64,000 bases of DNA. It comes from Escherichia virus TH34. The stretch is from sequence record MT446407.1; one strand, 5' to 3'. Shown piece after piece: positions 5,921 to 55,979 of this stretch (positions within the stretch are counted from its first letter, which is position 1; every line of letters begins with the position of its first letter). A program made the position numbers and the translations under genes. A model generated the notes under the pieces. That model made no database searches, had not been told where the DNA came from, and saw only the letters and a program-made list of their open reading frames with translations.

Positions 5921-8164
5921 TTATTTTCTACTACCAAGCTTTCTATTAGGAATCCTAGAATCTTTGAGAGAACTCTGTTGTTCTTTCTTAGTTTCATTTG
6001 CTTCTTTCTTTTGGAGTTCCAAAGTCTTATCTTGAATTTTAGCTTGCTGGTCTACCTTCTCAAGATCAACCTGATGATTCATGGTCATCTGGAGTTCTTT
6101 CAGTATAGATTCATATTGACGAACCTGTTGCTGAAGGAGAGAAAGCTTATGCTTAGCTTGTTCAAGAGTAGCTGAGTTATCTTCCTTACGATTTTCGAGA
6201 GTCATCTGATCAGCAGCATTCTCTTGCTTGAATTGCAATTCTTCTTGACGCAAGCTGAACTCGTCCGCAGCTTTCTGCTGTTCAAACGTAGTACGTTCAC
6301 GCTGGTCGAATGCATCAGCAATCATCTTCTGAGAAGAAGCCTGTACGTTCTCAACCTGAGCTTTAGTCATCTCGAGCTGGAGGATTTCCATCGGAGAAGG
6401 CTGAGGAGGTTGATACTGTTCAAGAGGCATAAGATATTTATGAGTGTCTTTAATACCCATCAACTCAAAGATCTGTGCAGTCATATAACGATCTTGCTCC
6501 AGAGTAAAGAGAGGTGCAAGCTGAGCATCAGCAGCAATCAATTGCTTCAGGCTAATCAGTTTCTGTGCACGTTCTGATTTCTCAGTAGGAGAGATAGCTA
6601 CAACAACTTGTAAATTATGACGAGCTGGTAATTGTTTAGGATTTACTTCAACCATACCACGAGGGGTTTGAACCTGTAAAGGAACTTCACCATTTTCTCT
6701 GATAAGGTTGTAAATACCACGCATTAATTCAACCATACCATTATGAGCAATGTTACGACAAACCATACGGAGACGGTTCTGTGCAGCATTCATCATTAGA
6801 CCTACGGTTGCATATGCGTTATCATTCTTAAATACATCAGGGTTAATACCCATACCAAGTTTAGTAACACCTGTACGAGTTTCTTTCAACTCTTCAGACA
6901 TTCCTAACAGACCATCAATACCTTGAGGTAGATTGTGGTAAGGGAAGAGATCAATCGCATCCTGACGCTCCATTTCAACTACACCACCCGGACGGTTGTC
7001 TAGTAAAGAACGACGGTCATAGGCTCCTACAATGGCTTTATATCGACCATAGTTTGCGTTGTTAACGTTATCAATGTAACCACGGACAAGTGCTGTACGT
7101 AGGTCTTGAATATCTTTAGTAATGTCATACACGGATTGACCATAGAAGGAACCCGGAATAGGATAAGGACAGAAAGTAACAAACGGAATGCTAGTTACTT
7201 CTTCACAAGAGAGAATATGCTCACCTGCTTGGATTACTTGATAGAGTTTAGATTCTTTGTTATTATCCAATACACCTGTACGGATGTAATGTTCATAAAC
7301 CCAAACCATGCAAGCCACATCTTCAGTGTCCACACCAATGTCTGCATCAATGTCCTGTCTCCAGTCAGTACGTGACCAAGCAACTGTAGACTGAGTGGTG
7401 TCCATTGTATCAGTCCAGTCGTTAAACGCTTCGATCTCGTCTTTAGGGAAGCCCATTGCTAATAAATCATCTTTAGATTTACGTGTGCGATGACAGAAAT
7501 ACTGAGCATCTGCAAAAGAGGTAGCATGTTCGTCAACAAAGATTTGCTCTGAAGGAACATATTCTACTTTAACACGTTTTACTGTTTGTTTGTAAGTTAC
7601 TTTAACATCCACTGTTCCATCATCGTTTTCAGTGGTAAAGATTTCTAAATCTTGAAGTCCACCTGCTTCCATACCTTGTACGTATGCAGCCAAAGCTTCT
7701 GGAGGTACGCCCTCAGCCTCTTCTGTTTGGGTAGAGGTTTGTTCATCCCAATAGTATTTGATAAAAGAGTTACGTGTAACCAGACATTCCTGAGCCGCTG
7801 AGGAAATGATGTTATATCCCGGATTATCACGAAGCAAGATTTGGTTTACAAGCTTAGTTGCTACATCAGCTGCATCCGAATCTGCTTGGTTGTCCGCAAC
7901 AAACGTCACCGCTTCATCGCCTGAACAGAATACGTTAATGATATCTTGGAGAGTTCCGTTAACAGACTCCCATACTGTACGATCTACCCAACTAGAGCTT
8001 CCAGCAGTTACTGGAGCTGGTAAGTTTCCGTAGAAATATTCCCATGCTTCACGAGAATAACCTTTTACAGCGATGTCTACATAACCCTGTGCATAATTGA
8101 ATCGACGTTGAAGGTCAACGCGTAATTCATCCAAAATATCTTCACTAAATTTCTTCTTAGCCAT
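5921..8164 (-). CDS. portal protein with long C-terminal helical (barrel-like) extension
   Basis: 747 aa; directly downstream of large terminase; C-terminal about 150 aa Q/E/K-rich coiled coil as in P22-type portals. Confidence 0.65.
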   Translation of the reverse strand: MAKKKFSEDILDELRVDLQRRFNYAQGYVDIAVKGYSREAWEYFYGNLPAPVTAGSSSWVDRTVWESVNGTLQDIINVFCSGDEAVTFVADNQADSDAADVATKLVNQILLRDNPGYNIISSAAQECLVTRNSFIKYYWDEQTSTQTEEAEGVPPEALAAYVQGMEAGGLQDLEIFTTENDDGTVDVKVTYKQTVKRVKVEYVPSEQIFVDEHATSFADAQYFCHRTRKSKDDLLAMGFPKDEIEAFNDWTDTMDTTQSTVAWSRTDWRQDIDADIGVDTEDVACMVWVYEHYIRTGVLDNNKESKLYQVIQAGEHILSCEEVTSIPFVTFCPYPIPGSFYGQSVYDITKDIQDLRTALVRGYIDNVNNANYGRYKAIVGAYDRRSLLDNRPGGVVEMERQDAIDLFPYHNLPQGIDGLLGMSEELKETRTGVTKLGMGINPDVFKNDNAYATVGLMMNAAQNRLRMVCRNIAHNGMVELMRGIYNLIRENGEVPLQVQTPRGMVEVNPKQLPARHNLQVVVAISPTEKSERAQKLISLKQLIAADAQLAPLFTLEQDRYMTAQIFELMGIKDTHKYLMPLEQYQPPQPSPMEILQLEMTKAQVENVQASSQKMIADAFDQRERTTFEQQKAADEFSLRQEELQFKQENAADQMTLENRKEDNSATLEQAKHKLSLLQQQVRQYESILKELQMTMNHQVDLEKVDQQAKIQDKTLELQKKEANETKKEQQSSLKDSRIPNRKLGSRK

Positions 8165-8231
8165 CTAATCTCTCCCTCGGTTGATAGCTTGGAGTAAACT
8201 ACTAAAGGGAGGACTAGCCTCCCCACTATAT

Positions 8232-9773
8232 TTAGTAGCTTTGATTCCATCTGTTAATATTTTCTTGATAAAGCGACGAGCTACCATAGCTAGCGTCATG
8301 CTTAGACCGACCTCTGTGTGTAACAGAACAAGCTGAATATCGCATTGCGTCCATAAGGTCATCGTGTTCTTTAATAATCTTCCCAACTTTTCGATGGTAA
8401 CGTGCTTTCTCTTCAAAGAGCTTAGCACATGCGGTAGTATTAAAGACTTTGAATCGACCTGACATCATACGCTCACGAATATCAGTAATTCCTGGCTCCA
8501 CAAAGAAGTTCTTCTTACTATCCATTCCGATCTTGTTGTGGAAGGTATCATTTTGTACGTTTACTCCTGCATTTTTATAGAATTGTGCTACAGAAGCACC
8601 ACTTCCCTTCTCAATGTTATCAGCATCGTGAGGAAGAATGACTGGAATCCACTGACCACGACCATTAATAGCTGGTGCATGATACACTGGAGTAAAGCCA
8701 CTTTCTTTATAGCAGTCATAAATGTAGATTGTATCGGTGTTAGCATCATAAGCTGACCATACAGCTGCCGTCGGGTGATCAATACCAATATCAATGGCAC
8801 AAACACGTTTCCACGTATCAGGAATTTCAAACGGGTCACACTTAATTGAATCATCAGATACATCGTAAATCAAACCTGAACCCAACAGAGGCATACCTTT
8901 AGAGCGCATCTCTAGCTGCCATGCCGGAATACCTTCTGTCATATCCTTTATATCTTGGTCAGAGATGTGACCACCTAGGTCCACATGAGCATCCCACCAA
9001 GAAGCATTTTGGAAATACAGAGAACCTGTGTTCTCGTCCCCTTCACCTTTCATAAACTTGTCCACCAGCTCTGTTAATCCGTTCTCTGGTGTAGCTGTAA
9101 TCGTAACTAAACCTTTAGTAGTAAGTGTACGTGTTACGCACTGAGAGAAGATTGCCATACTTTCATAAGGATCTTCTTCGTCCAGCCAAATGTAATCCAC
9201 TGTAGCACCCATTAATGTGTGTTCACCCTGTTGGGTAGAACGAAACTCTAACGTACTCAGCCCATCAAATTCGCCTCTAGCATTTTGGTGCTTGATTTGT
9301 ACGATCTGTAATTTGTTTCCATCTCGTTCTATCGTGTCAATGACGATAGCGTCACGAGGAATAACACCCGTCCCTAATAAGTTTGTATCCTTTCCGATAG
9401 GTGTTCCAAATAATTCCTTTTGCAATACCTTTCTTGTAGAGTCCCCTGTAATCCCTACTGCCCAAGCCAATATGGGTCGATTAAATCTATATCCTGTCCA
9501 CCAAGTTGGGTAGCGACCTGTGACATGACAAGCAAACTCGTATGCCTCGCTGTAAGATTTACCAACACGGTTAGCTGCACACAGGAATCTAAAGCGATGC
9601 TTCAGTCCCGCTGCATAAAAGTCTTTCTGAAACTGGTATGCTTTAAAAGAAAGAATCCTATTATACTTTCTCCATTGATCTCTATCCTTCAGCATTTCAA
9701 GCAGAGCCTTCTTCTCCTCTACCGATAGCTTGTCTCCAGTTAGTGCTTCATATATTTCTTTATCTAATGACAT
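8232..9773 (-). CDS. terL: terminase large subunit
   Basis: 513 aa; Walker-A-like LCAANRVGKS near N-terminus; acidic residues consistent with a C-terminal nuclease domain; position upstream of portal. Confidence 0.8.
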   Translation of the reverse strand: MSLDKEIYEALTGDKLSVEEKKALLEMLKDRDQWRKYNRILSFKAYQFQKDFYAAGLKHRFRFLCAANRVGKSYSEAYEFACHVTGRYPTWWTGYRFNRPILAWAVGITGDSTRKVLQKELFGTPIGKDTNLLGTGVIPRDAIVIDTIERDGNKLQIVQIKHQNARGEFDGLSTLEFRSTQQGEHTLMGATVDYIWLDEEDPYESMAIFSQCVTRTLTTKGLVTITATPENGLTELVDKFMKGEGDENTGSLYFQNASWWDAHVDLGGHISDQDIKDMTEGIPAWQLEMRSKGMPLLGSGLIYDVSDDSIKCDPFEIPDTWKRVCAIDIGIDHPTAAVWSAYDANTDTIYIYDCYKESGFTPVYHAPAINGRGQWIPVILPHDADNIEKGSGASVAQFYKNAGVNVQNDTFHNKIGMDSKKNFFVEPGITDIRERMMSGRFKVFNTTACAKLFEEKARYHRKVGKIIKEHDDLMDAMRYSACSVTHRGRSKHDASYGSSSLYQENINRWNQSY

Positions 9774-17673: not shown

Positions 17674-17891
17674 TCTTAACTCAATCCCATTTGTGTCCTA
17701 TCTGTAAGAAAGCGCGTGCTAATAACAATCATCGCAAGTGTAGCAGAATCCTACAGCGTCGTCGTAATGATGCCGAGATGGATAAAATGCACAAAAACCA
17801 GCATGAGCACGAAAGAAAACAAGCGGCGATCAATGCATCTTCTGTAATGTATCGTCGTGTAAGATCACTCCAATATAAGGATGCTATCTAA
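17670..17891 (+). CDS. small basic Cys-containing protein
   Basis: 73 aa; CPICKK...HRKC motif; very basic. Confidence 0.4.
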   Translation: MILTQSHLCPICKKARANNNHRKCSRILQRRRNDAEMDKMHKNQHEHERKQAAINASSVMYRRVRSLQYKDAI

Positions 17892-18170: not shown

Positions 18171-18614
18171 ATGGCTAAATCTAAAATCAGCATGAAAGGC
18201 GGGCGTGTGTTCTCGATGAGTGAACTGGAAAAAGATAAGCCAGTCGCTACTAACCACATTAGCAAACGTAGCCTTAAACGTAGAGCTATCAAACAAACCG
18301 CTCAAGAACATAAACCCTCTACCGTAGCAAAGGTGTTAGGTCGTCGTGTTCATCGTGCTGATGCGCTTCTTAAAGCTGATCATAACCGTTCACTGTTAAC
18401 CAACGGTGCAGCGAAAACAGAAGAAGAGAAACGTTTAGAAATCTATTGCAACGGTCGCACTAAAGGTAAGCAGAAGAATAAAGGTAGCACTAAGCCACCG
18501 AAAGCTTTCCCTACTACTAGTCAATGTGCACCGGATGTTTTCTACGCTGACAGTCAGCATAAGTGGGGAGTCGAAAAATACATTGACCCCATCAAGGAAG
18601 CGAGAGTAAAGTAA
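18171..18614 (+). CDS. highly basic protein (possible nucleic-acid-binding)
   Basis: 147 aa, Lys/Arg-rich throughout. Confidence 0.45.
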   Translation: MAKSKISMKGGRVFSMSELEKDKPVATNHISKRSLKRRAIKQTAQEHKPSTVAKVLGRRVHRADALLKADHNRSLLTNGAAKTEEEKRLEIYCNGRTKGKQKNKGSTKPPKAFPTTSQCAPDVFYADSQHKWGVEKYIDPIKEARVK

Positions 18615-18855
18615 GCCTCTTCTCTGTACCAGTAGTCAACTACTATGACGCTCTTCTTGAGCGTCTTTGTGTCTGCCGCCTTTGTGCGGCTTTTTGCGTA
18701 GCTAGTGATGCCTAAAGGGCACTCCCTTTGTGAATCATTGGCATGGTTCAATCCCTATTGGATGGTCATTTGACCGGGCCTTTAACGAGGCCGCTTTTTT
18801 AAGAGTCTTTACGAGGATTCTTAAATGAGTGAGGTCATGTTCACTCTTTCAGGTC

Positions 18856-18882
18856 GCCCCGTCTTCGGATGGGGCTTTTTTA
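18856..18882 (+). terminator. rho-independent terminator
   Basis: gccccgtc-ttcg-gatggggc followed by ttttttat. Confidence 0.6.
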
Positions 18883-18909
18883 TGCCCGTAAAACAGGAGG
18901 TAGTAAGTT

Positions 18910-19320
18910 CTGATAACGACAGCCCAGCTACTTTTGACATTGACTATTTATTATGAGGCAGGGAATCAGCCAACCGCTTGCAAAGCATTAGTAGCGGATA
19001 CCGTAATAAACAGAATGTCACAACGAAAACTGACTGCCGAGCAGGTTATAAACCAACGAAACCAGTTCGAGTGGATACCCGTCTTATTAAAGAAGGAGAA
19101 ACCTTTCAAACGTTATGTAAAGCTAATTCGTGATGATAATCCCCTGATAAAGAAGTCAATCAGAGAGAGCGAGCGGCTTGCAAGGCGTGCACTGAAGAAA
19201 AGTTATGTGCCTTTATACAGTGGTACATACTTTCAGAGTAAGAGCGAAGGGGTGCCAAAGTGGTATACCAATCCAATGTATTGTGGTGATTTAGTGTTCA
19301 ATAATAGTGCCCGTGACTGA
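18910..19320 (+). CDS. SleB/CwlJ-like cell wall hydrolase (start codon uncertain, non-ATG)
   Basis: YYEAGNQ, VADTVINRM, NQRNQFEWI, SERLARRAL, PKWY segments match the CwlJ/SleB family pattern; no in-frame ATG or GTG after stop at 18904; AGGAGG at 18895-18900 is 9 nt upstream of CTG 18910. Confidence 0.55.
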   Translation: MITTAQLLLTLTIYYEAGNQPTACKALVADTVINRMSQRKLTAEQVINQRNQFEWIPVLLKKEKPFKRYVKLIRDDNPLIKKSIRESERLARRALKKSYVPLYSGTYFQSKSEGVPKWYTNPMYCGDLVFNNSARD

Positions 19321-19521
19321 TTCATAGGTGCCAAGATTGACAAACTAAATTTCCTTATAAATCACCTACTTATGATTTTCTCTGCAAAAAGTGGTAGTGA
19401 TTCGGAACCAGAGGTAATGACTGTATATAGACCTCTGAAAATTATTGATAGAAATTAAGTTTAGAAATAATAAATTCTAAATAATATTTCTTATAATATC
19501 TTACTTTAAGAGGATAAAGAT

Positions 19522-32199: not shown

Positions 32200-32276
32200 C
32201 ACAATGGGCGCTCTGATAAAGGGCGCATTTAAAGGTTAATTAGATGAAAGGGTTTACCCTTCAGGTGGATTAGAAA

Positions 32277-34310
32277 ATTTGTGGTATCGTATTAGCTGGG
32301 GGCAACATGACCTCCACAGACTTAGACGTATTCAACCAGCTTCTGTATGCTGGAGTCTTCCGTGGTCAGCACTCAACTGGTGTGTTCGGTCAGCGTAAAG
32401 GTGATGAAAAAGTATTTTCTTATAAAGAAGCACTTCCTTCCTATGCCTTCATGCTCCAGACAGGGTACACGAATCTTACTAAGGGGCTTACGAACTATGT
32501 AGTTCCTCCATCGTGGATTGTTGGTCATAGCCGACATGCCACACGTGGTGCGGTCAATGCTCGAAATGCTCACCCATTCTCTCATGGTGACATTACTCTG
32601 GTTCATAATGGTACACTGTTAGATCAGGAACTGTTACCAGATCATAAGAATTTCGAAGTTGATAGCGAAAACATCTGTCATTCAATCAACACCATCGGTG
32701 CAGCAGAGACTATCCAGAAGTTGGATGGTGCGTTCACTTTAATCTGGCATGACGCCAAAGACAATACTCTGCATATCATTCGTAACGATGAACGTCCTTT
32801 CCATCTGGCCCGTTGTGGTCTAGATTGGTTTGGTGCTTCTGAAGAAGATATGTTGATGTGGATTCTTAATCGTTCCAAGTCACACAAGAACCGTATCAAT
32901 GATCACTTTGAGTGTAAAGTGGGAACTGAATACATCTTTGATTTGTCTGGCAACCGTATGACTCTGACTCAAGAGGTGGAGCACAAGCTTCCGGTTTTTA
33001 CGGTAACGAGTCGCTGGGGCGGCTATTACTCGAACTCTTCTCTGTATCAGAACCAACAGACAAACAAATCAAGCAGCAGCACAAGCGACATTTACGGAAA
33101 CAAAGACGACAAGCCCGGCGTGACAAGCGGAGACATTCGTCGTCGTAAAGCGATTGAAGATCAGAATAAACTGGCTGCCGATCGTGGTCTTCCGTATCGT
33201 CGTGACGGTCGTGTGGATATCATTCCTCATGAGTTCCACGCTTATAACAACACTGACCGTGGTAAGATGGTTGGTTATATTTATGATGATGCTGCTCAAG
33301 AGTATGTTGAGGGTGATGTTCATAATGTAGCCAAGAGTGAATACTTGAAGGCTCTCGAAAACCCAAAGGTAGTGTATCGCGGGACAGTTGCTTGTATCTC
33401 CGAAGTGGACAGTATGATTCGCCTCGTACTCACTTCAGGGCTGTTTGTTGATGCTACCGATAAGGAGCCTCAAAGCACTACCGCTGATTTTGATGATGAT
33501 ATCCCTTTTGATTTAGAAGACTCCTTCATCACTAAGAATGGTGTGGAAGTCACCCGTAAGTTCTGGGAATCACATTCTCATGGTGATTGTGGCGGTTGTG
33601 ACAAGCATATTGAATGGAAAGATGCTAAGAAAGCTGTGTTCGCTTACCAAGCATATTGGCATCCGGCCTGTTTCGAAGCATTGTCCAAACCGTCTGAAGA
33701 AGATGAAGACATTCCTTTGGGTGTCTGTGCTGTATGTGGCAATGTTAAAACTGATTTCGAGTTTGATAACGAAATGAGTAAACTTCGTGGTGAAGATATT
33801 TGTTATGTCTGTGCCAAAGAGATCAAAGACAAAGTGACTAACACTACATTGTCTGAAGGTTACATTTGGACTAAAGCAGTTGACACAACCAACCCACGTC
33901 GCCCTGAAGTAGCAGTTCGTGTTGATCAGCGTATGCTTAGCCGGATGATTGTAATGGTCAGCTCAGCTAAACGTTCTGGTGACATTGAATTGTCTGATGT
34001 TCCAAATTCTTATTTGGAAAAACGTGGTGGTGATACCTATGCCATCTCTGTTTATGGTCCAAAGAATGCCCCAAAGGAGGTGCCCGCTGAGAAAGCGGAA
34101 ACATTTCCAGAAAAGCAAACAACTCTCCGAAAAACAGTTGTCAGTTACGACGGACAACGAACAGCTGAGTTCACAAAAGCCCTCTGGACTTCAATTGGGT
34201 TTTGTGCGGTCTGTTATAAACAAATTCCGTGGCGTGATGCAGAAATTTGCTCACTGAACAAAGAAAACAGGGTGATCTGTAATTCAGATTACTGTAAAGG
34301 TAAACATTAA
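32277..34310 (+). CDS. class-II glutamine amidotransferase (Ntn-hydrolase)-like protein with C-terminal zinc-ribbon region
   Basis: GAT-II motifs RGQHSTG, LVHNGTL, DGAFTLIWHD, IRNDERPFHL; the canonical N-terminal C-G-I-V is encoded at 32280 just upstream of the first ATG (32307), preceded by ATT (32277) and SD AGGTGG (32263-32268); C-terminal half has several C-x2-C pairs. Confidence 0.7.
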   Translation: MCGIVLAGGNMTSTDLDVFNQLLYAGVFRGQHSTGVFGQRKGDEKVFSYKEALPSYAFMLQTGYTNLTKGLTNYVVPPSWIVGHSRHATRGAVNARNAHPFSHGDITLVHNGTLLDQELLPDHKNFEVDSENICHSINTIGAAETIQKLDGAFTLIWHDAKDNTLHIIRNDERPFHLARCGLDWFGASEEDMLMWILNRSKSHKNRINDHFECKVGTEYIFDLSGNRMTLTQEVEHKLPVFTVTSRWGGYYSNSSLYQNQQTNKSSSSTSDIYGNKDDKPGVTSGDIRRRKAIEDQNKLAADRGLPYRRDGRVDIIPHEFHAYNNTDRGKMVGYIYDDAAQEYVEGDVHNVAKSEYLKALENPKVVYRGTVACISEVDSMIRLVLTSGLFVDATDKEPQSTTADFDDDIPFDLEDSFITKNGVEVTRKFWESHSHGDCGGCDKHIEWKDAKKAVFAYQAYWHPACFEALSKPSEEDEDIPLGVCAVCGNVKTDFEFDNEMSKLRGEDICYVCAKEIKDKVTNTTLSEGYIWTKAVDTTNPRRPEVAVRVDQRMLSRMIVMVSSAKRSGDIELSDVPNSYLEKRGGDTYAISVYGPKNAPKEVPAEKAETFPEKQTTLRKTVVSYDGQRTAEFTKALWTSIGFCAVCYKQIPWRDAEICSLNKENRVICNSDYCKGKH

Positions 34311-49199: not shown

Positions 49200-51047
49200 G
49201 TGATGGATAACCCTGATAAGTTACCTTTCATAACGGAGATGACAGTCGCTGATATAATCTCAAAGCAGGCGAAGCATGGCGTCAACTTCCACAGAAGAAA
49301 CGCTCGGTGGTTTGTTCACCTTCTCAAAGAGATTATTGTCAATATTGATAAAGAACTGATTCCTCTCCTCCCCAAAATGCGGGTGGATGGTTCAACTTAT
49401 TCGAAACCTTTTAAGAAGTCAGGTTCTTTACAGAAGTGGCCTCAGCTCTATTGTGACAGAGTTGGTCTTAAAAGGGAAGATATCGGTGGGGCGTTTACTT
49501 GCGTTGAGTATGTAGACTTCGACCCATCGAAAGATGCACGTATCAAAGAAGCCTTGATGGACGAAGGCTTTATTCCTCCAGAGTGGAACACATCCAAGAA
49601 ACCTTGGAATACTTACGAAATCCGTAAAGCGATGAAGAAGTATGGCACATATGCTGCTTGGTATTCTGCTTGGATGCGGGGAAACGCTAAAGAAAAACAG
49701 ACAGCTGAGATGATTGACGCTGACATTCGTCGGTTCTTGGATAAACACTTCCGTTATCACACTGTCAATTACATGAAAGCGTACGTTAGTGGTTTAGGCT
49801 TGAATCCGAACAGGAAGAAGCCTGTAACCTTTGATGAAATTAAGAAAGCTTTAGCCATGTCAAACAAGTGGCCTACAGCTCCTACAAACCTCGAGGAGAC
49901 GCTTGAAGAAGGTCTTGGGGGTGAGCTAGGGGGTGTGGGAGGTTTGCTTAAGAGACGTGTTGTAGCGGCTCACAGGCTTGGCTTGATTAATGGTCTTATA
50001 GACAAGGAACGAGAAGATGGTAAGTTGTCCGCCGAAGCTAATAGCTGCGCTACTCCGACATTTCGTTTTAAACACCGTATTGTTGTTAATATTCCTTCTC
50101 GCGGTTTGTTTGGTCACGAGTGCCGCAGTCTATTTCAGTCTGACTGTACCTCAAGTGATAGTAATCACAATCCTATCATCATTACCAACCATATCCCTGA
50201 TGGGTGTTACGTACGAAAAGGTACAAACACTATCTACGAAGTGGGAAAACCGGGCAAGAAAGACAAACCGATAGGTGCTCTGAAATATTACATACCTTCT
50301 GGTCATGAAGTATTTCTTGGTTATGATGGTTCAGGGTTAGAACTGCGTATGCTGGCTCACTACCTTATTAAAGAGTGTCGTGAGATGTTGGCAGAGGCAG
50401 AACAAGAGAATAACCCAGCTAAGAAACGAGAAGCTGAACGCGGTTTAGCATCTGCCGTATTGTACAGAGATATTCTCTTACAGGGTGATATTCACTCCCA
50501 TAACCAGAAACTTGCTGGCTTGCCTACCCGTGATAATGCTAAGACGTTTATCTACGCATTCAACTACGGAGCTGGTGATGCTAAGCTAGGTAGTATTGTT
50601 GGTGGTGGGGCTGATGAAGGTTCTATAATGAGAGCTAGATTCTTAGCAGAGAACCCTTGTATTGCAATCCTTATTGAACGTATGACAGAGAAAGCACAAA
50701 GTGGATACATCTACGGTGTTGACGGTCGTCGTATTACAATGAGACGTGACGGTACAGGAAAGGTCATGACACACAAAGCCTTAAATACGCTCTTACAGAG
50801 CGCTGGGGCGATTGTTATGAAGTATGCAATGCTATTCCTCAATAAATGGATTGAGCGTGATGGTGTTCGTTGTGCGAAGGTTATCGACATGCATGATGAA
50901 GGTCAGTTCACTGTACATCGTGATGATGTTAACAAACTTCGCACTCTCACTGAGGAATGTGTTCGTAAAGCGGGTGAATACCTCAAGATGGAATGCCCTC
51001 TTGCATCAGATTGTAAGATTGGACTGAATTGGCAGCATACGCACTAA
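49200..51047 (+). CDS. family-A DNA polymerase, polymerase domain only
   Basis: 615 aa; motif A LGYDGSGLELRMLAHY, motif B RDNAKTFIYAFNYGAG, motif C MHDEGQF; no exonuclease motifs in this ORF. Confidence 0.8.
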   Translation: MMDNPDKLPFITEMTVADIISKQAKHGVNFHRRNARWFVHLLKEIIVNIDKELIPLLPKMRVDGSTYSKPFKKSGSLQKWPQLYCDRVGLKREDIGGAFTCVEYVDFDPSKDARIKEALMDEGFIPPEWNTSKKPWNTYEIRKAMKKYGTYAAWYSAWMRGNAKEKQTAEMIDADIRRFLDKHFRYHTVNYMKAYVSGLGLNPNRKKPVTFDEIKKALAMSNKWPTAPTNLEETLEEGLGGELGGVGGLLKRRVVAAHRLGLINGLIDKEREDGKLSAEANSCATPTFRFKHRIVVNIPSRGLFGHECRSLFQSDCTSSDSNHNPIIITNHIPDGCYVRKGTNTIYEVGKPGKKDKPIGALKYYIPSGHEVFLGYDGSGLELRMLAHYLIKECREMLAEAEQENNPAKKREAERGLASAVLYRDILLQGDIHSHNQKLAGLPTRDNAKTFIYAFNYGAGDAKLGSIVGGGADEGSIMRARFLAENPCIAILIERMTEKAQSGYIYGVDGRRITMRRDGTGKVMTHKALNTLLQSAGAIVMKYAMLFLNKWIERDGVRCAKVIDMHDEGQFTVHRDDVNKLRTLTEECVRKAGEYLKMECPLASDCKIGLNWQHTH

Positions 51048-54590: not shown

Positions 54591-54938
54591 ATGGAAAAGC
54601 TTCAAAACAATATCGGCTTCTTAGTCTTTACAGCCCTTGTATTCTTTGGTGGGATGAAGTTTGAGCAATATCGAAATGATAGTAACACTCTTGACCAAGA
54701 GAAGAAACAACAAGAGATTGAGATTGAGAGAGCTAAGGCTGCTGATGAAGTAGCTCAGAAAGTTCTTACCAGTATAACCAACTGGAAGAAGAACACAGAA
54801 ACTATTTATAAAGAGATGCATTATGAAAAGACTAAGCCAGTTTTTTACAATGTGTGCGCTAGCGATGAGTATGTCAGCTTGTTCAACGAGCGACAACAGC
54901 AGGCAGCTAATGCCCTTACCAACAAACCTAAAAGCTGA
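54591..54938 (+). CDS. i-spanin (Rz-like)
   Basis: N-terminal TM (IGFLVFTALVFFGG) then charged coiled coil; contains the embedded o-spanin start in another frame. Confidence 0.6.
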   Translation: MEKLQNNIGFLVFTALVFFGGMKFEQYRNDSNTLDQEKKQQEIEIERAKAADEVAQKVLTSITNWKKNTETIYKEMHYEKTKPVFYNVCASDEYVSLFNERQQQAANALTNKPKS

Positions 54939-55083
54939 GTGTGATGTTGATCTCCCTTTGCTTCAGAGTGCACAGGGAGTGGCATTTGCAACAACATTAG
55001 AGTGGTATCAGGACAACTACACAACCTGTGCTGCTAACCATAATGGTTTACTGAAAGCTCTCAAGGAGAGAGGAATACAATGA
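54823..55083 (+). CDS. o-spanin (Rz1-like lipoprotein)
   Basis: signal peptide with lipobox MSAC; Pro-rich mature region; overlaps the 3' end of the i-spanin gene. Confidence 0.6.
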   Translation: MKRLSQFFTMCALAMSMSACSTSDNSRQLMPLPTNLKAECDVDLPLLQSAQGVAFATTLEWYQDNYTTCAANHNGLLKALKERGIQ

Positions 55084-55328: not shown

Positions 55329-55979
55329 ATGAAGAAGAAGACAACACCCACACGCTATCGTATTCATGGCATTCCTATTAAATATTATCCAACCTTCGAT
55401 GAATTCTATCGAGAGAACTGGAAAGTTGTGCATCGCTATTTTATGTATGACATTAAAGATTATCACGAAGCAGAGGATGTTGCTCAGGAAGTATTACTGA
55501 ACGCTTGGCGTTTTGTGTTTGCAAAGCAAGAAGAACTTCTGCTCGCTGATGAAAAAGATATTGAACACATGACTTATCGTGTTAAGAATATCATCTGGTC
55601 TATTCGTTCTAACCGTCAGACAGTTGGAGATCGACGTATCTACTCTATTCCAGAGGCTGATATGTTTAGACCTCCTGAGATGAACTCATGGGAAAGTCCT
55701 TTAGAGATTGCGATGGATAAGCATGACTCTACTGGAGACCCCTTCTTGGAATCTAGAATCTTTTTCTTCTTCCAAGACTTAAGTGATATTATGGATACCA
55801 AGAAAATGGCAAGCATGTTCTCTATGCTCTTCCTTGGAATACCTCACGATCACATCCAGCAAGAGCTGGGAATTTCACACGGAACTTTCTATCGCCGATA
55901 TGCAGAGAATCGTGATCTGTACGAAGCTGTAGTAGAGAAGCACTTTGATAAAGAAGATCTTCAAGGGATGATTCAATAA
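55329..55979 (+). CDS. phage-encoded ECF-like sigma factor
   Basis: 216 aa; region-2-like [20 protein letters not shown] and C-terminal HTH-like [19 protein letters not shown]. Confidence 0.55.

What the first reader, a model, noticed from the sequence alone, without database searches (positions are those of the whole stretch)
18904..19320. SleB/CwlJ-like cell wall hydrolase in the early region with no canonical start codon
The ORF matches the CwlJ/SleB pattern across its length but has no in-frame ATG or GTG after the stop at 18904. The only good Shine-Dalgarno (AGGAGG 18895-18900) is 9 nt before CTG 18910. It is far from the spanin genes, so it may not be the endolysin; it could be a virion-associated or regulated hydrolase. 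With the GAT-II gene, this is the second enzyme here with a non-AUG initiation context.
Basis: seen in the sequence. Interest (0 to 1): 0.45.

Follow-up and report, generated by a model that had tools for sequence, protein, structure and literature searches.

The report
Phage cell-wall hydrolase starting at CTG
A small, well-conserved SleB-type cell-wall-cutting enzyme gene of phiEco32-like E. coli phages has most likely swapped its normal start codon (ATG, then TTG in relatives) for the very weak CTG, so it is probably made in tiny amounts; this corrects inconsistent annotations but is not a new kind of system.

Summary
The ORF is real. It is the ortholog of phiEco32 phi32_117, present in all 98 E. 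coli Gordonclarkvirinae records. It passes the Pfam Hydrolase_2 threshold (31.5 vs 27 bits). Its AlphaFold model (pLDDT 92) matches only SleB catalytic domains in the PDB.

The claim of no in-frame ATG/GTG holds only for the first 35 codons, and in-frame TTGs at 18934 and 18940 were missed.

Comparative evidence favours CTG 18910 as the start:
- Syntenic orthologs carry ATG (29-56% identity) or TTG (65-70%) at exactly that codon.
- All 22 E. coli-phage sequences examined keep a Shine-Dalgarno, 9 nt, then CTG, even where the upstream flank is unrelated.
- Codons 2-7 show only synonymous third-position changes, in a gene with dS about 1 and dN/dS 0.07.
- The downstream TTG and ATG have no Shine-Dalgarno and would cut helix 1, which carries the catalytic Glu.

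The gene sits behind four terminator-like hairpins with no promoter of its own. It has no signal peptide. It is not the main endolysin, because relatives carry a holin plus GH24 lysozyme and an SLT virion protein elsewhere. It is most likely a low-abundance accessory muralytic enzyme. Its role and the start codon both remain untested experimentally.

The GAT-II gene likewise appears to start at ATT.

The parts
18647..18665 (+). terminator-like hairpin 1 of 4 in the 295-nt gap upstream of the gene
   Evidence: 5 terminator-like sites found in 18400-19700 against 1.2 +/- 1.0 in shuffles; four of them are on the + strand in this gap
18675..18690 (+). terminator-like hairpin 2
18777..18792 (+). 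terminator-like hairpin 3
18856..18882 (+). terminator-like hairpin 4 (GCCCCGTC-TTCG-GATGGGGC plus T6), ending 13 nt before the SD
   Evidence: Equivalent terminators are annotated just upstream of the ortholog in Paul, 4E8 and Salmonella phage 7-11
18895..18900 (+). Shine-Dalgarno AGGAGG (GGGGG in some relatives)
   Evidence: Anti-SD duplex is -11.6 kcal/mol. It is conserved in 22/22 sequences, although the sequence 5' of it is unrelated in phiEco32, Bas92/94, 4E8/EP335 and L107
18901..18906 (+). in-frame TAG TAA that close the frame upstream, so no start further 5' is possible
   Evidence: Relatives read TAG CAA or TAT CAA, with a TAA four codons earlier
18910..18912 (+). proposed near-cognate start codon CTG
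   Evidence: ATG or TTG occupies exactly this codon in 11 syntenic or homologous orthologs. CTG is invariant in 22/22. Bas88 and Bas86 GenBank records already annotate a 411-nt CDS from here
18910..19320 (+). CDS for a 136-aa single-domain Hydrolase_2 (SleB/CwlJ-type) protein, stop TGA 19318-19320; ortholog of phiEco32 phi32_117 and Paul CPT_Paul_123
   Evidence: dN/dS 0.07 against phiEco32; intact in every sequence aligned
18919..18960 (+). helix 1 of the fold (residues 4-17), ending with the invariant Glu16
   Evidence: pLDDT 94-96 over residues 1-20; E16 invariant
18955..18957 (+). GAG, Glu16 of the Y-x-E-A-G-N-Q motif (E-A-R-G-E-P in more distant orthologs); presumed catalytic Glu
   Evidence: Equating it with the SleB catalytic Glu rests on general knowledge of the family, not on a test run here
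18934..18936 (+). first in-frame canonical start (TTG, codon 9), used by gene callers to give 128 aa; judged a conserved internal Leu codon
   Evidence: it is CTG or TTA in ATG-start orthologs; no SD
19015..19017 (+). internal ATG (codon 36), used as the start in the SU7, EP335 and EK010 annotations (101 aa); this removes the catalytic Glu
   Evidence: In one search the 101-aa EP335 model matches the fold at TM 0.27 only
18967..19272 (+). stretch matched by the Pfam Hydrolase_2 profile (residues 21-122 of the 137-aa translation from 18907)

Best explanation
Window 18910-19320 (+) encodes a 136-residue, single-domain SleB/CwlJ-type (Pfam Hydrolase_2) peptidoglycan-cleaving enzyme. It is the ortholog of phiEco32 phi32_117 and is conserved in all E. 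coli Gordonclarkvirinae. Translation most likely starts at the near-cognate codon CTG 18910 (read as fMet), 9 nt after AGGAGG. This codon is the positional descendant of the ATG, then TTG, start of orthologs in related phages.

Three features point to small amounts of protein (inferred). CUG initiates at roughly 1-3% of AUG in E. coli. The SD spacing is longer than in the TTG orthologs. The gene lies behind four terminator-like hairpins with no promoter of its own.

The protein has no signal peptide or membrane anchor, so it would reach the wall only when the membrane is breached by the phage holin. It is not the main endolysin, because the clade has a holin plus GH24 lysozyme cassette and an SLT-domain virion protein. 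Its most likely role is a low-abundance accessory muralytic enzyme (inferred, untested).
For: Gene and fold:
- Pfam Hydrolase_2 scores 31.5 bits against a cut-off of 27. PHROG 12974 matches at E 7.5e-84.
- The AF2 model has pLDDT 92 and pTM 0.88. The only significant PDB matches are SleB catalytic domains 4FET/4F55, prob 1.00, TM 0.59-0.65 over 135 columns.
- BFVD matches are phage 'SleB domain' proteins and endolysins.
- The ORF is intact in every sequence aligned. Against phiEco32, dS = 1.02, dN = 0.072 and omega = 0.07.

Start codon:
- In syntenic orthologs the start sits at exactly the CTG codon. (The upstream gene is 68% identical.)
- It is TTG in four loci of 65-70% identity, and ATG in five metagenomic loci of 37-56% identity.
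- GAP52 and 7-11 start with ATG one residue earlier in the protein alignment.
- All full-length orthologs share the N-terminus M-L-[ST]-[ST]-A-x-L-L-L-T-L-T, matching window (L)-I-T-T-A-Q-L-L-L-T-L-T.
- SD-9 nt-CTG-ATA is identical in 22/22 E. coli-phage sequences. The sequence 5' of the SD is unrelated in several lineages.
- The four variable sites in 18913-18930 are all third-position and synonymous. My calculation: chance C(7,4)/C(21,4) = 0.006.
- Against phiEco32, codons 2-7 show 3 synonymous and 0 non-synonymous differences over 12.7 non-synonymous sites. At the gene's synonymous difference rate (0.56), zero changes has probability about 3e-5 (my calculation).
- The anti-SD duplex is -11.6 kcal/mol for CTG but >=0 for TTG 18934 and 18940.
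- TTG 18934 is a conserved Leu codon, CTG or TTA in the ATG-start orthologs.
- Starting at codon 8 or 9 would remove half of helix 1 (residues 4-17).
- Paul's curators annotated a ribosome-binding site for the neighbouring genes but none for their ATG-start version of this gene.

Expression level:
- CUG gives 1-2% (range 0.02-3%) of AUG in E. coli reporters (bioRxiv 10.1101/063800).
- Four terminator-like hairpins lie upstream and no sigma-70 or gp36-type promoter was found.
- The protein is absent from the 34 proteins in the SU10 proteome.

Not the main endolysin:
- Paul has a holin, a Phage_lysozyme endolysin, an SLT internal virion protein and spanins elsewhere.
- The lysozyme is present at >=80% identity in 98 records.
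- PMC4281155 and PMC7881722 say the same of the clade.
Against: - There is no direct evidence of the N-terminus or of expression.
- CTG starts are very rare in E. coli and its phages.
- Canonical in-frame TTGs lie 8 and 10 codons downstream. Kuravirus genomes have gained an in-frame ATG at codon 8 through two substitutions, which could mean initiation has moved there.
- ATA 18913 is equally conserved and cannot be excluded by conservation alone.
- The comparative statistics rest on few variable sites in a short stretch. A conserved leader RNA could mimic part of that signal.
- The window does not contain the holin/lysozyme cassette, so its presence in this particular phage is inferred from relatives.
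- Homology to SleB is distant. No sequence-level PDB hit was found, and identity in the fold match is 17-18%.
- SleB and CwlJ act on spore cortex, so activity on E. coli murein is assumed rather than shown.
- The biological role of a cytoplasmic, low-level hydrolase in the early arm is a guess.
Confidence: 0.65

Rival explanations
1. The ancestral start has been lost. Translation now begins at the first canonical codon downstream: TTG 18934 in this phage, and the ATG that replaces CTT 18931 in Kuravirus. This gives a 128/129-aa protein. Conservation of the SD and of codons 2-8 would then reflect something else, such as a standby site or RNA element.
For: TTG and ATG are canonical starts. Gene callers and most GenBank records use them. 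Kuravirus created the ATG by two substitutions from the ancestral CTT, which looks like compensation for a weak start.
Against: - No SD lies upstream of these codons; anti-SD dG is >=0.
- No conserved hairpin brings the distant SD close to them.
- Codons 2-7 show 0 non-synonymous and 3-4 synonymous changes at gene-typical dS, in both clades.
- TTG 18934 is an internal Leu codon in ATG-start orthologs.
- All full-length orthologs keep the 8 extra residues, which form the first half of core helix 1.
Confidence: 0.15
2. Initiation is at ATA 18913, 12 nt from the SD, rather than at CTG. This gives a 135-aa protein.
For: ATA is also a near-cognate codon with a similar reporter efficiency to CUG. 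It is invariant in 22/22 sequences. The SD-to-ATG spacer in GAP52 and 7-11 is also long, 11-12 nt after AGGAG.
Against: The Met of nine orthologs aligns with CTG, and their second residue (Leu) aligns with the ATA-encoded Ile. A 9-nt spacing is nearer the usual range than 12 nt.
Confidence: 0.08
3. The gene is an untranslated relic, a pseudogene whose start codon decayed.
For: It has a non-canonical start, lies behind terminators, has no promoter and was not detected in the SU10 proteome. One metagenomic contig has a premature stop at codon 126.
Against: The ORF is intact with the same length in 21 of 22 sequences, despite dS of about 1. Omega is 0.05-0.12, and variable sites fall 22/12/64 by codon position. 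The SD is retained.
Confidence: 0.03
4. The protein is packaged in the virion and helps penetrate the wall at entry.
For: It is a small muralytic domain encoded away from the lysis genes. Low copy number would suit a virion enzyme.
Against: It was not found among the 34 proteins of the SU10 preparation, which did detect the SLT-domain internal virion protein gp20. That SLT protein already fills the role. The gene is in the early arm, far from morphogenesis genes.
Confidence: 0.05

Closest known systems
SleB / CwlJ spore-cortex lytic enzymes (Pfam PF07486 Hydrolase_2; PDB 4FET, 4F55)
   Same: Same catalytic-domain fold (TM 0.59-0.65, prob 1.0). Pfam score is above threshold. The Glu-containing helix-1 motif is conserved: Y-x-E-A-G-N-Q here, E-A-R-G-E-P in orthologs.
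   Different: Only 17-18% identity, with no sequence-level PDB hit. It has no PG-binding domain and no signal peptide, and it is encoded by a phage of a non-sporulating Gram-negative host. Substrate and chemistry are untested.
phiEco32 phi32_117 / Paul CPT_Paul_123 'cell wall hydrolase' / PHROG 12974
   Same: Direct orthologs, 84-98% protein identity, at the same locus.
   Different: Those records start the protein at a Kuravirus-specific ATG (129 aa) or at TTG (128 aa). This window, like the other Suseptimavirus and Nieuwekanaalvirus genomes, has CTT at that position. Only Bas86 and Bas88 annotate the 136-aa CTG-start form.
Cronobacter phage GAP52 gp023 and Salmonella phage 7-11 gp111 ('endolysin', Grimontviridae)
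   Same: Hydrolase_2 proteins of the same length class (141 aa), 29-33% identical, with no signal peptide. They sit in the equivalent genome arm, and in 7-11 a terminator lies just upstream.
   Different: They have an ordinary ATG start. Their genomes use an M15 endopeptidase (gp069) as the other annotated endolysin and lack the holin/lysozyme cassette (PMC4281155).
Near-cognate start codons in E. coli (infC and pcnB AUU; reporter data for CUG/AUA/AUC/AUU)
   Same: A strong SD followed by a one-mismatch codon, giving low-level initiation that IF3 discriminates against (the infC and pcnB examples are from general knowledge).
   Different: No autoregulatory loop is known or shown here. The evidence is comparative only.
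SleB-domain endolysins and hydrolases of other Gram-negative phages (e.g. Erwinia phage Y2 endolysin, Goslar, pf16, GAP31)
   Same: Same fold, TM 0.66-0.80.
   Different: Those are longer (150-250 aa), often with extra domains or N-terminal extensions. Distant IMG/VR homologs sharing the IYYEAGNQ motif mostly carry signal peptides or TM anchors.

Membership tests
Pfam Hydrolase_2 (SleB/CwlJ cell wall hydrolase) | Profile HMM score above the curated gathering threshold | tested here: met
   31.5 bits against 27, E 2.9e-7. GAP52 ortholog scores 61.7 bits.
Pfam Hydrolase_2 (SleB/CwlJ cell wall hydrolase) | SleB catalytic-domain fold | tested here: met
   AF2 model pLDDT 92. Foldseek top three hits are 4FET_A, 4F55 and 4FET_B, prob 1.00, TM 0.59-0.65. 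All other hits have E > 3.
Pfam Hydrolase_2 (SleB/CwlJ cell wall hydrolase) | Conserved Glu at the end of helix 1 (Y-G-E-A-R-G-E motif), the catalytic residue of SleB | tested here: met
   E16 is invariant in 16 orthologs. More distant orthologs read Y-H-E-A-R-G-E-P. That this Glu is the catalytic one in SleB is taken from general knowledge, and no residue-level superposition was available.
Pfam Hydrolase_2 (SleB/CwlJ cell wall hydrolase) | Muralytic (lytic transglycosylase) activity | not testable with these tools
   Needs a zymogram or sacculus digestion.
Canonical phage endolysin of a lysis cassette | Encoded with the holin/spanins and expressed late | tested here: not met
   The gene is in the early arm, about 35 kb from the spanins (54600-55080). 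In relatives the holin and lysozyme lie among the morphogenesis genes (PMC7881722, PMC4281155).
SAR or secreted endolysin | N-terminal signal peptide or signal-anchor-release helix | tested here: not met
   Residues 4-17 form core helix 1 of the fold at pLDDT 94-96. The protein has no extension, unlike distant homologs with signal or TM N-termini.
Virion-associated peptidoglycan hydrolase | Present in purified virions | tested here: inconclusive
   Not among the 34 proteins found in the SU10 PEG preparation. A low-copy protein could have been missed.
Genes with a near-cognate (non-AUG/GUG/UUG) start codon | Conserved coding sequence extends upstream of the first canonical start, up to an in-frame stop | tested here: met
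   Codons 2-7 show only synonymous third-position variation. TAG/TAA lie directly upstream.
Genes with a near-cognate (non-AUG/GUG/UUG) start codon | Shine-Dalgarno at working distance from the near-cognate codon, and none at the downstream canonical codons | tested here: met
   -11.6 kcal/mol at 9 nt, against >=0 for TTG 18934 and 18940.
Genes with a near-cognate (non-AUG/GUG/UUG) start codon | Orthologs carry a canonical start at the same codon | tested here: met
   TTG in 4 and ATG in 5 syntenic metagenomic loci. GAP52 and 7-11 have ATG within one codon.
Genes with a near-cognate (non-AUG/GUG/UUG) start codon | Direct evidence of the N-terminus or initiation site | not testable with these tools
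   No N-terminomics or ribosome profiling for these phages was found in the paper library.

The most novel reading that the evidence does not exclude
The near-cognate starts in this phage group (CUG on the hydrolase, AUU on the Ntn glutamine amidotransferase) may be more than weak starts. They could act as an IF3-sensitive translational switch, holding these enzymes near zero early and letting them rise as initiation fidelity or IF3 availability falls during infection. In that reading the hydrolase, perhaps with the syntenic downstream membrane/coiled-coil protein (19522-19827), would act as a timed second wall-remodelling module.
Probability: 0.08. Interest if true: 0.6.

Novelty: new member of a known kind. 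Interest (0 to 1): 0.35.

Why it matters
- Annotation: this conserved gene is annotated with at least five different starts across GenBank records (136, 129, 128, 110 and 101 aa). Two of those remove the catalytic Glu. The comparative evidence fixes the likely N-terminus.
- Evolution: it gives a clean natural example of stepwise start-codon weakening (ATG, then TTG, then CTG) at one orthologous codon while the SD and the protein stay under selection. That suggests expression was tuned down rather than the gene lost.
- Wider pattern: together with the probable ATT start of the GAT-II gene, it shows that phiEco32-like phages use near-cognate starts that standard gene callers miss.
- Use as an enzyme: anyone wanting to express this protein as an enzybiotic should use the 136-aa form.

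Tried and rejected
- A hairpin bringing the distant SD next to TTG 18934 or the Kuravirus ATG (a split RBS as in T4 gene 38). The window MFE pairs GGAGGUAGU with GCUACUUUU, but the z-score is -0.66 and the pairing is absent in Kuravirus and in the TTG/ATG orthologs. Rejected.
- Fusion or frameshift with the overlapping ATG ORF 18825-18956. That ORF runs through the terminator hairpin, and its sequence is replaced by unrelated DNA in phiEco32, Bas92/94 and L107. Rejected. The annotated phi32_118 and Bas88_0109/0110 are probably spurious.
- AGGAGG as a predictor of true starts in this window. Only 2 of 11 plus-strand AGGAGG motifs precede a canonical start, and most lie inside genes. The motif count alone is uninformative, so I relied on conservation instead.
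- A promoter for the gene. No sigma-70-like site lies between the terminators and the SD. The nearest match to the phage sigma (gp36) consensus TAATGTATA is at 17845, with one mismatch, upstream of the terminators.
- Rfam and tRNA searches of the upstream gap gave nothing near threshold.
- Sequence-level link to solved SleB structures. None at E<=1 with the ortholog profile, nor at E<=10 with the single sequence. Only the fold comparison shows it.
- My interim idea that this gene is the ancestral endolysin displaced by the holin/lysozyme cassette. GAP52 and 7-11 have their own second endolysin, the M15 peptidase gp069. The Hydrolase_2 gene is therefore accessory in both families. Idea dropped.
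- A window-wide scan for other strong-SD near-cognate starts. 18910 is the only convincing case at dG <= -8. The GAT ATT has a weaker SD (GGTGGA) and was found by homology instead.

Full report
WHAT THE WINDOW IS. The region matches E. coli podophages of the subfamily Gordonclarkvirinae (phiEco32-like). It is 95-98% identical to TH43, Bas88, EK010, ECBP2 and SU7 (Suseptimavirus). It is 82-86% identical to phiEco32, Paul, SU10 and other Kuravirus phages, and to EP335 and 4E8; EP335 is classified as Nieuwekanaalvirus. There are 98 matching records in all. In the window, portal and terminase lie on the minus strand (5924-9773). The arm that is early in phiEco32 runs on the plus strand after them. 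DNA polymerase is at 49203-51044, the spanins at 54600-55080 and the phage sigma factor at 55329-55973.

CHECK OF THE OBSERVATION. The statement 'no in-frame ATG or GTG' is only true up to codon 35. ATG occurs at 19015 and 19276, and GTG at 19207, 19252 and 19294. Only CTG 18910 and ATA 18913 have a Shine-Dalgarno. The anti-SD duplex is -11.6 kcal/mol for them, >=0 for the TTGs and -3.3 for ATG 19015.

WHAT THE PROTEIN IS. The translation passes the Pfam Hydrolase_2 gathering threshold (31.5 vs 27 bits) and matches PHROG 12974 end to end. An AlphaFold2 model built on 16 orthologs is confident (pLDDT 92, pTM 0.88). In the PDB it matches only the SleB catalytic domains 4FET and 4F55 (prob 1.00, TM 0.59-0.65, 17-18% identity). 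No sequence-level PDB hit exists. Among viral models it matches SleB-domain hydrolases and endolysins of many Gram-negative phages. Glu16, at the end of helix 1, is invariant. More distant orthologs show the classic E-A-R-G-E-P motif. The gene is under strong purifying selection: against phiEco32, dS = 1.02, dN = 0.072 and omega = 0.07, and the length is the same in every genome aligned.

WHERE TRANSLATION STARTS. Five lines of evidence point to CTG 18910.
1. Orthology. Metagenomic phages with the same gene order (upstream gene 68% identical) encode 132-136-aa orthologs. Their start codon lies at exactly the CTG position. It is TTG in four loci of 65-70% identity and ATG in five loci of 37-56% identity. 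GAP52 and 7-11 (29-33%) start with ATG one residue earlier. Their N-terminus M-L-T-T-A-A-L-L-L-T-L-T aligns residue for residue with (CTG)-I-T-T-A-Q-L-L-L-T-L-T.
2. Conservation of the initiation unit. In 22 of 22 E. coli-phage sequences the string GGAGG/GGGGG-T-A-[GT]-[TC]-A-A-G-T-T-CTG-ATA is kept. Yet the DNA immediately 5' of the SD is unrelated in phiEco32, Bas92/94, 4E8/EP335 and L107.
3. Codon-type evolution upstream of the first canonical start. The only variable sites in 18913-18930 are 18918, 18921, 18924 and 18930. All are third positions and synonymous. By my calculation the chance of that is 0.006. Between window and phiEco32, codons 2-7 have 3 synonymous and 0 non-synonymous differences, with a synonymous rate equal to that of the whole gene. 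For comparison, the non-coding DNA downstream of the stop varies at 48 of 66 sites with no periodicity.
4. TTG 18934 is a conserved Leu codon. It is CTG or TTA in the ATG-start orthologs and has no SD.
5. Structure. Residues 4-17 form one confidently modelled core helix ending in the catalytic Glu. Starts at codon 8, 9 or 36 truncate or delete it. The 101-aa EP335 annotation no longer matches the fold (TM 0.27).

No conserved RNA structure links the SD to a downstream start. ATA 18913 cannot be excluded by conservation, but it aligns with residue 2 of the orthologs.

EVOLUTIONARY PICTURE. At one orthologous codon the start goes from ATG in distant relatives, to TTG in intermediate ones, to CTG in the E. 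coli Gordonclarkvirinae. The SD spacer also lengthens, from 4-5 nt after AGGAGG in the TTG orthologs to 9 nt. Kuravirus later turned codon 8 from the ancestral CTT into ATG, which takes two substitutions. This may be a partial compensation or a neutral Leu-to-Met change, and it is unresolved.

EXPRESSION CONTEXT. The 295-nt gap upstream holds four plus-strand terminator-like hairpins, against 1.2 +/- 1.0 expected. The last ends 13 nt before the SD. No sigma-70-like promoter and no phage-sigma motif lies between them and the gene. Terminators are annotated at the same place in Paul, 4E8 and 7-11. The next annotated promoter lies downstream of the gene in SU7 and 4E8. In E. coli reporters CUG starts give 1-2% (range 0.02-3%) of AUG (bioRxiv 10.1101/063800). 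The protein was not among the 34 found in the SU10 PEG-lysate proteome, which did include several early and middle proteins. Taken together, low abundance is the reasonable inference.

WHAT IT IS NOT.
- It is not the main endolysin. Paul encodes a class III holin and a Phage_lysozyme (PF00959) endolysin between tail genes, an SLT-domain internal virion protein, and spanins. The lysozyme occurs at >=80% identity in 98 records, the same number that carry the hydrolase. Published descriptions agree (PMC4281155, PMC7881722). That cassette lies outside this window, so its presence in this phage is inferred.
- It is not a secreted or SAR enzyme. It has no N-terminal extension, unlike most distant homologs with the IYYEAGNQ motif.
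- It is not the displaced ancestral endolysin either. GAP52 and 7-11 keep an M15 peptidase endolysin as well as their Hydrolase_2 gene.

MOST LIKELY MECHANISM.
- Shown: a conserved, selected SleB-fold gene with a strong SD and a near-cognate codon at the ancestral start position.
- Inferred: initiation at CUG with fMet; low protein output; cytoplasmic localisation until the holin opens the membrane; an accessory muralytic contribution at lysis.
- Why the protein must be kept so scarce, and what it adds beyond the lysozyme, is unknown.

NOVELTY AND SCORE. SleB-domain phage hydrolases and near-cognate starts are both known. Two GenBank records (Bas86, Bas88) already annotate the CTG-start CDS without comment. 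What is new is the comparative argument for the CTG start, the ATG-to-TTG-to-CTG series, and the resolution of five conflicting annotations. This is a new member of known kinds and of moderate interest (0.35). A regulatory, IF3-sensitive reading that also includes the ATT-start GAT-II gene is possible but unsupported (about 8%).

Noticed in passing
window 32264-32310 (GAT-II gene, listed ORF 32307-34310): The Ntn glutamine amidotransferase ORF is listed from ATG 32307. In frame upstream lies TAG-AAA-ATT(32277)-TGT-GGT-ATC-GTA, giving Cys-Gly-Ile-Val, the class-II amidotransferase nucleophile motif. An SD-like GGTGGA sits 7 nt before the ATT.

Paul has the same ATT-TGT-GGC-ATC, has CTG where the window has ATG 32307, and is annotated from a Met 115 codons into the open frame, so its annotation lacks Cys1. 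A conserved ATT start is therefore probable. SU10 proteomics detected this protein (9 peptides) against the truncated model.
   Followed up: partly
window 18615-18894: Four tandem plus-strand terminator-like hairpins (18647-18665, 18675-18690, 18777-18792, 18856-18875) fill the gap between the 147-aa gene and the hydrolase, against 1.2 +/- 1.0 expected. No promoter, Rfam family or tRNA was found there. Metagenomic orthologous loci also have long gaps here, 269-656 nt by the called gene coordinates. How the hydrolase is transcribed is unclear.
   Followed up: partly
window 19522-19827: The next gene encodes a 101-aa protein with an N-terminal transmembrane helix followed by a coiled coil. It keeps this architecture and position in Paul and in 8 of 9 metagenomic orthologous loci, but not in GAP52 or 7-11. 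Several records label it 'DNA helicase', which looks like an annotation error. It could be a membrane partner of the hydrolase; this was not tested.
   Followed up: partly
window 18934-18975: Synonymous sites are almost frozen just after the start. There are 2 variable sites in 42 nt among 14 genomes, although the gene's dS is about 1. 'CTT TTG ACA TTG ACT ATT TA' is identical even in the 65-70% identity orthologs. The stretch contains two TTGAC(A/T) hexamers. The cause is unknown; it could be a constraint on the initiation region or a DNA element.
   Followed up: no
L002 / L006 / L088-L091 (equivalent of window 18931-18933): Kuravirus genomes have ATG where Suseptimavirus genomes, EP335/4E8 and the TTG-start orthologs have CTT. 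The change needs two substitutions and creates an in-frame ATG without an SD, 7 codons after the CTG.
   Followed up: partly
GenBank records of the ortholog (L001, L002, L003, L086-L091, L119, L121, L122): The same gene is annotated with five different starts:
- CTG, 136 aa (Bas86, Bas88)
- ATG at codon 8, 129 aa (phiEco32, Paul, XT18, Bas92/94)
- TTG at codon 9, 128 aa (4E8, PAS59, E20-1, HC-25922)
- 110 aa (O18-011)
- internal ATG, 101 aa (SU7, EP335, EK010)

Small ORFs annotated across the terminator (phi32_118, Bas88_0109/0110) are probably spurious.
   Followed up: yes
L108 (MAVG01000004.1): One metagenomic copy of the gene has a premature stop at codon 126, which removes the last 11 residues.
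   Followed up: no
L009-L083 (IMG/VR contigs): Distant homologs sharing the IYYEAGNQ motif nearly all carry N-terminal signal peptides or membrane anchors before the catalytic domain. The phiEco32-like and GAP52-like versions start directly at helix 1.
   Followed up: partly
window 23393-23468: A single tRNA-Arg (anticodon TCT) lies on the plus strand. The same tRNA is annotated in Paul.
   Followed up: no
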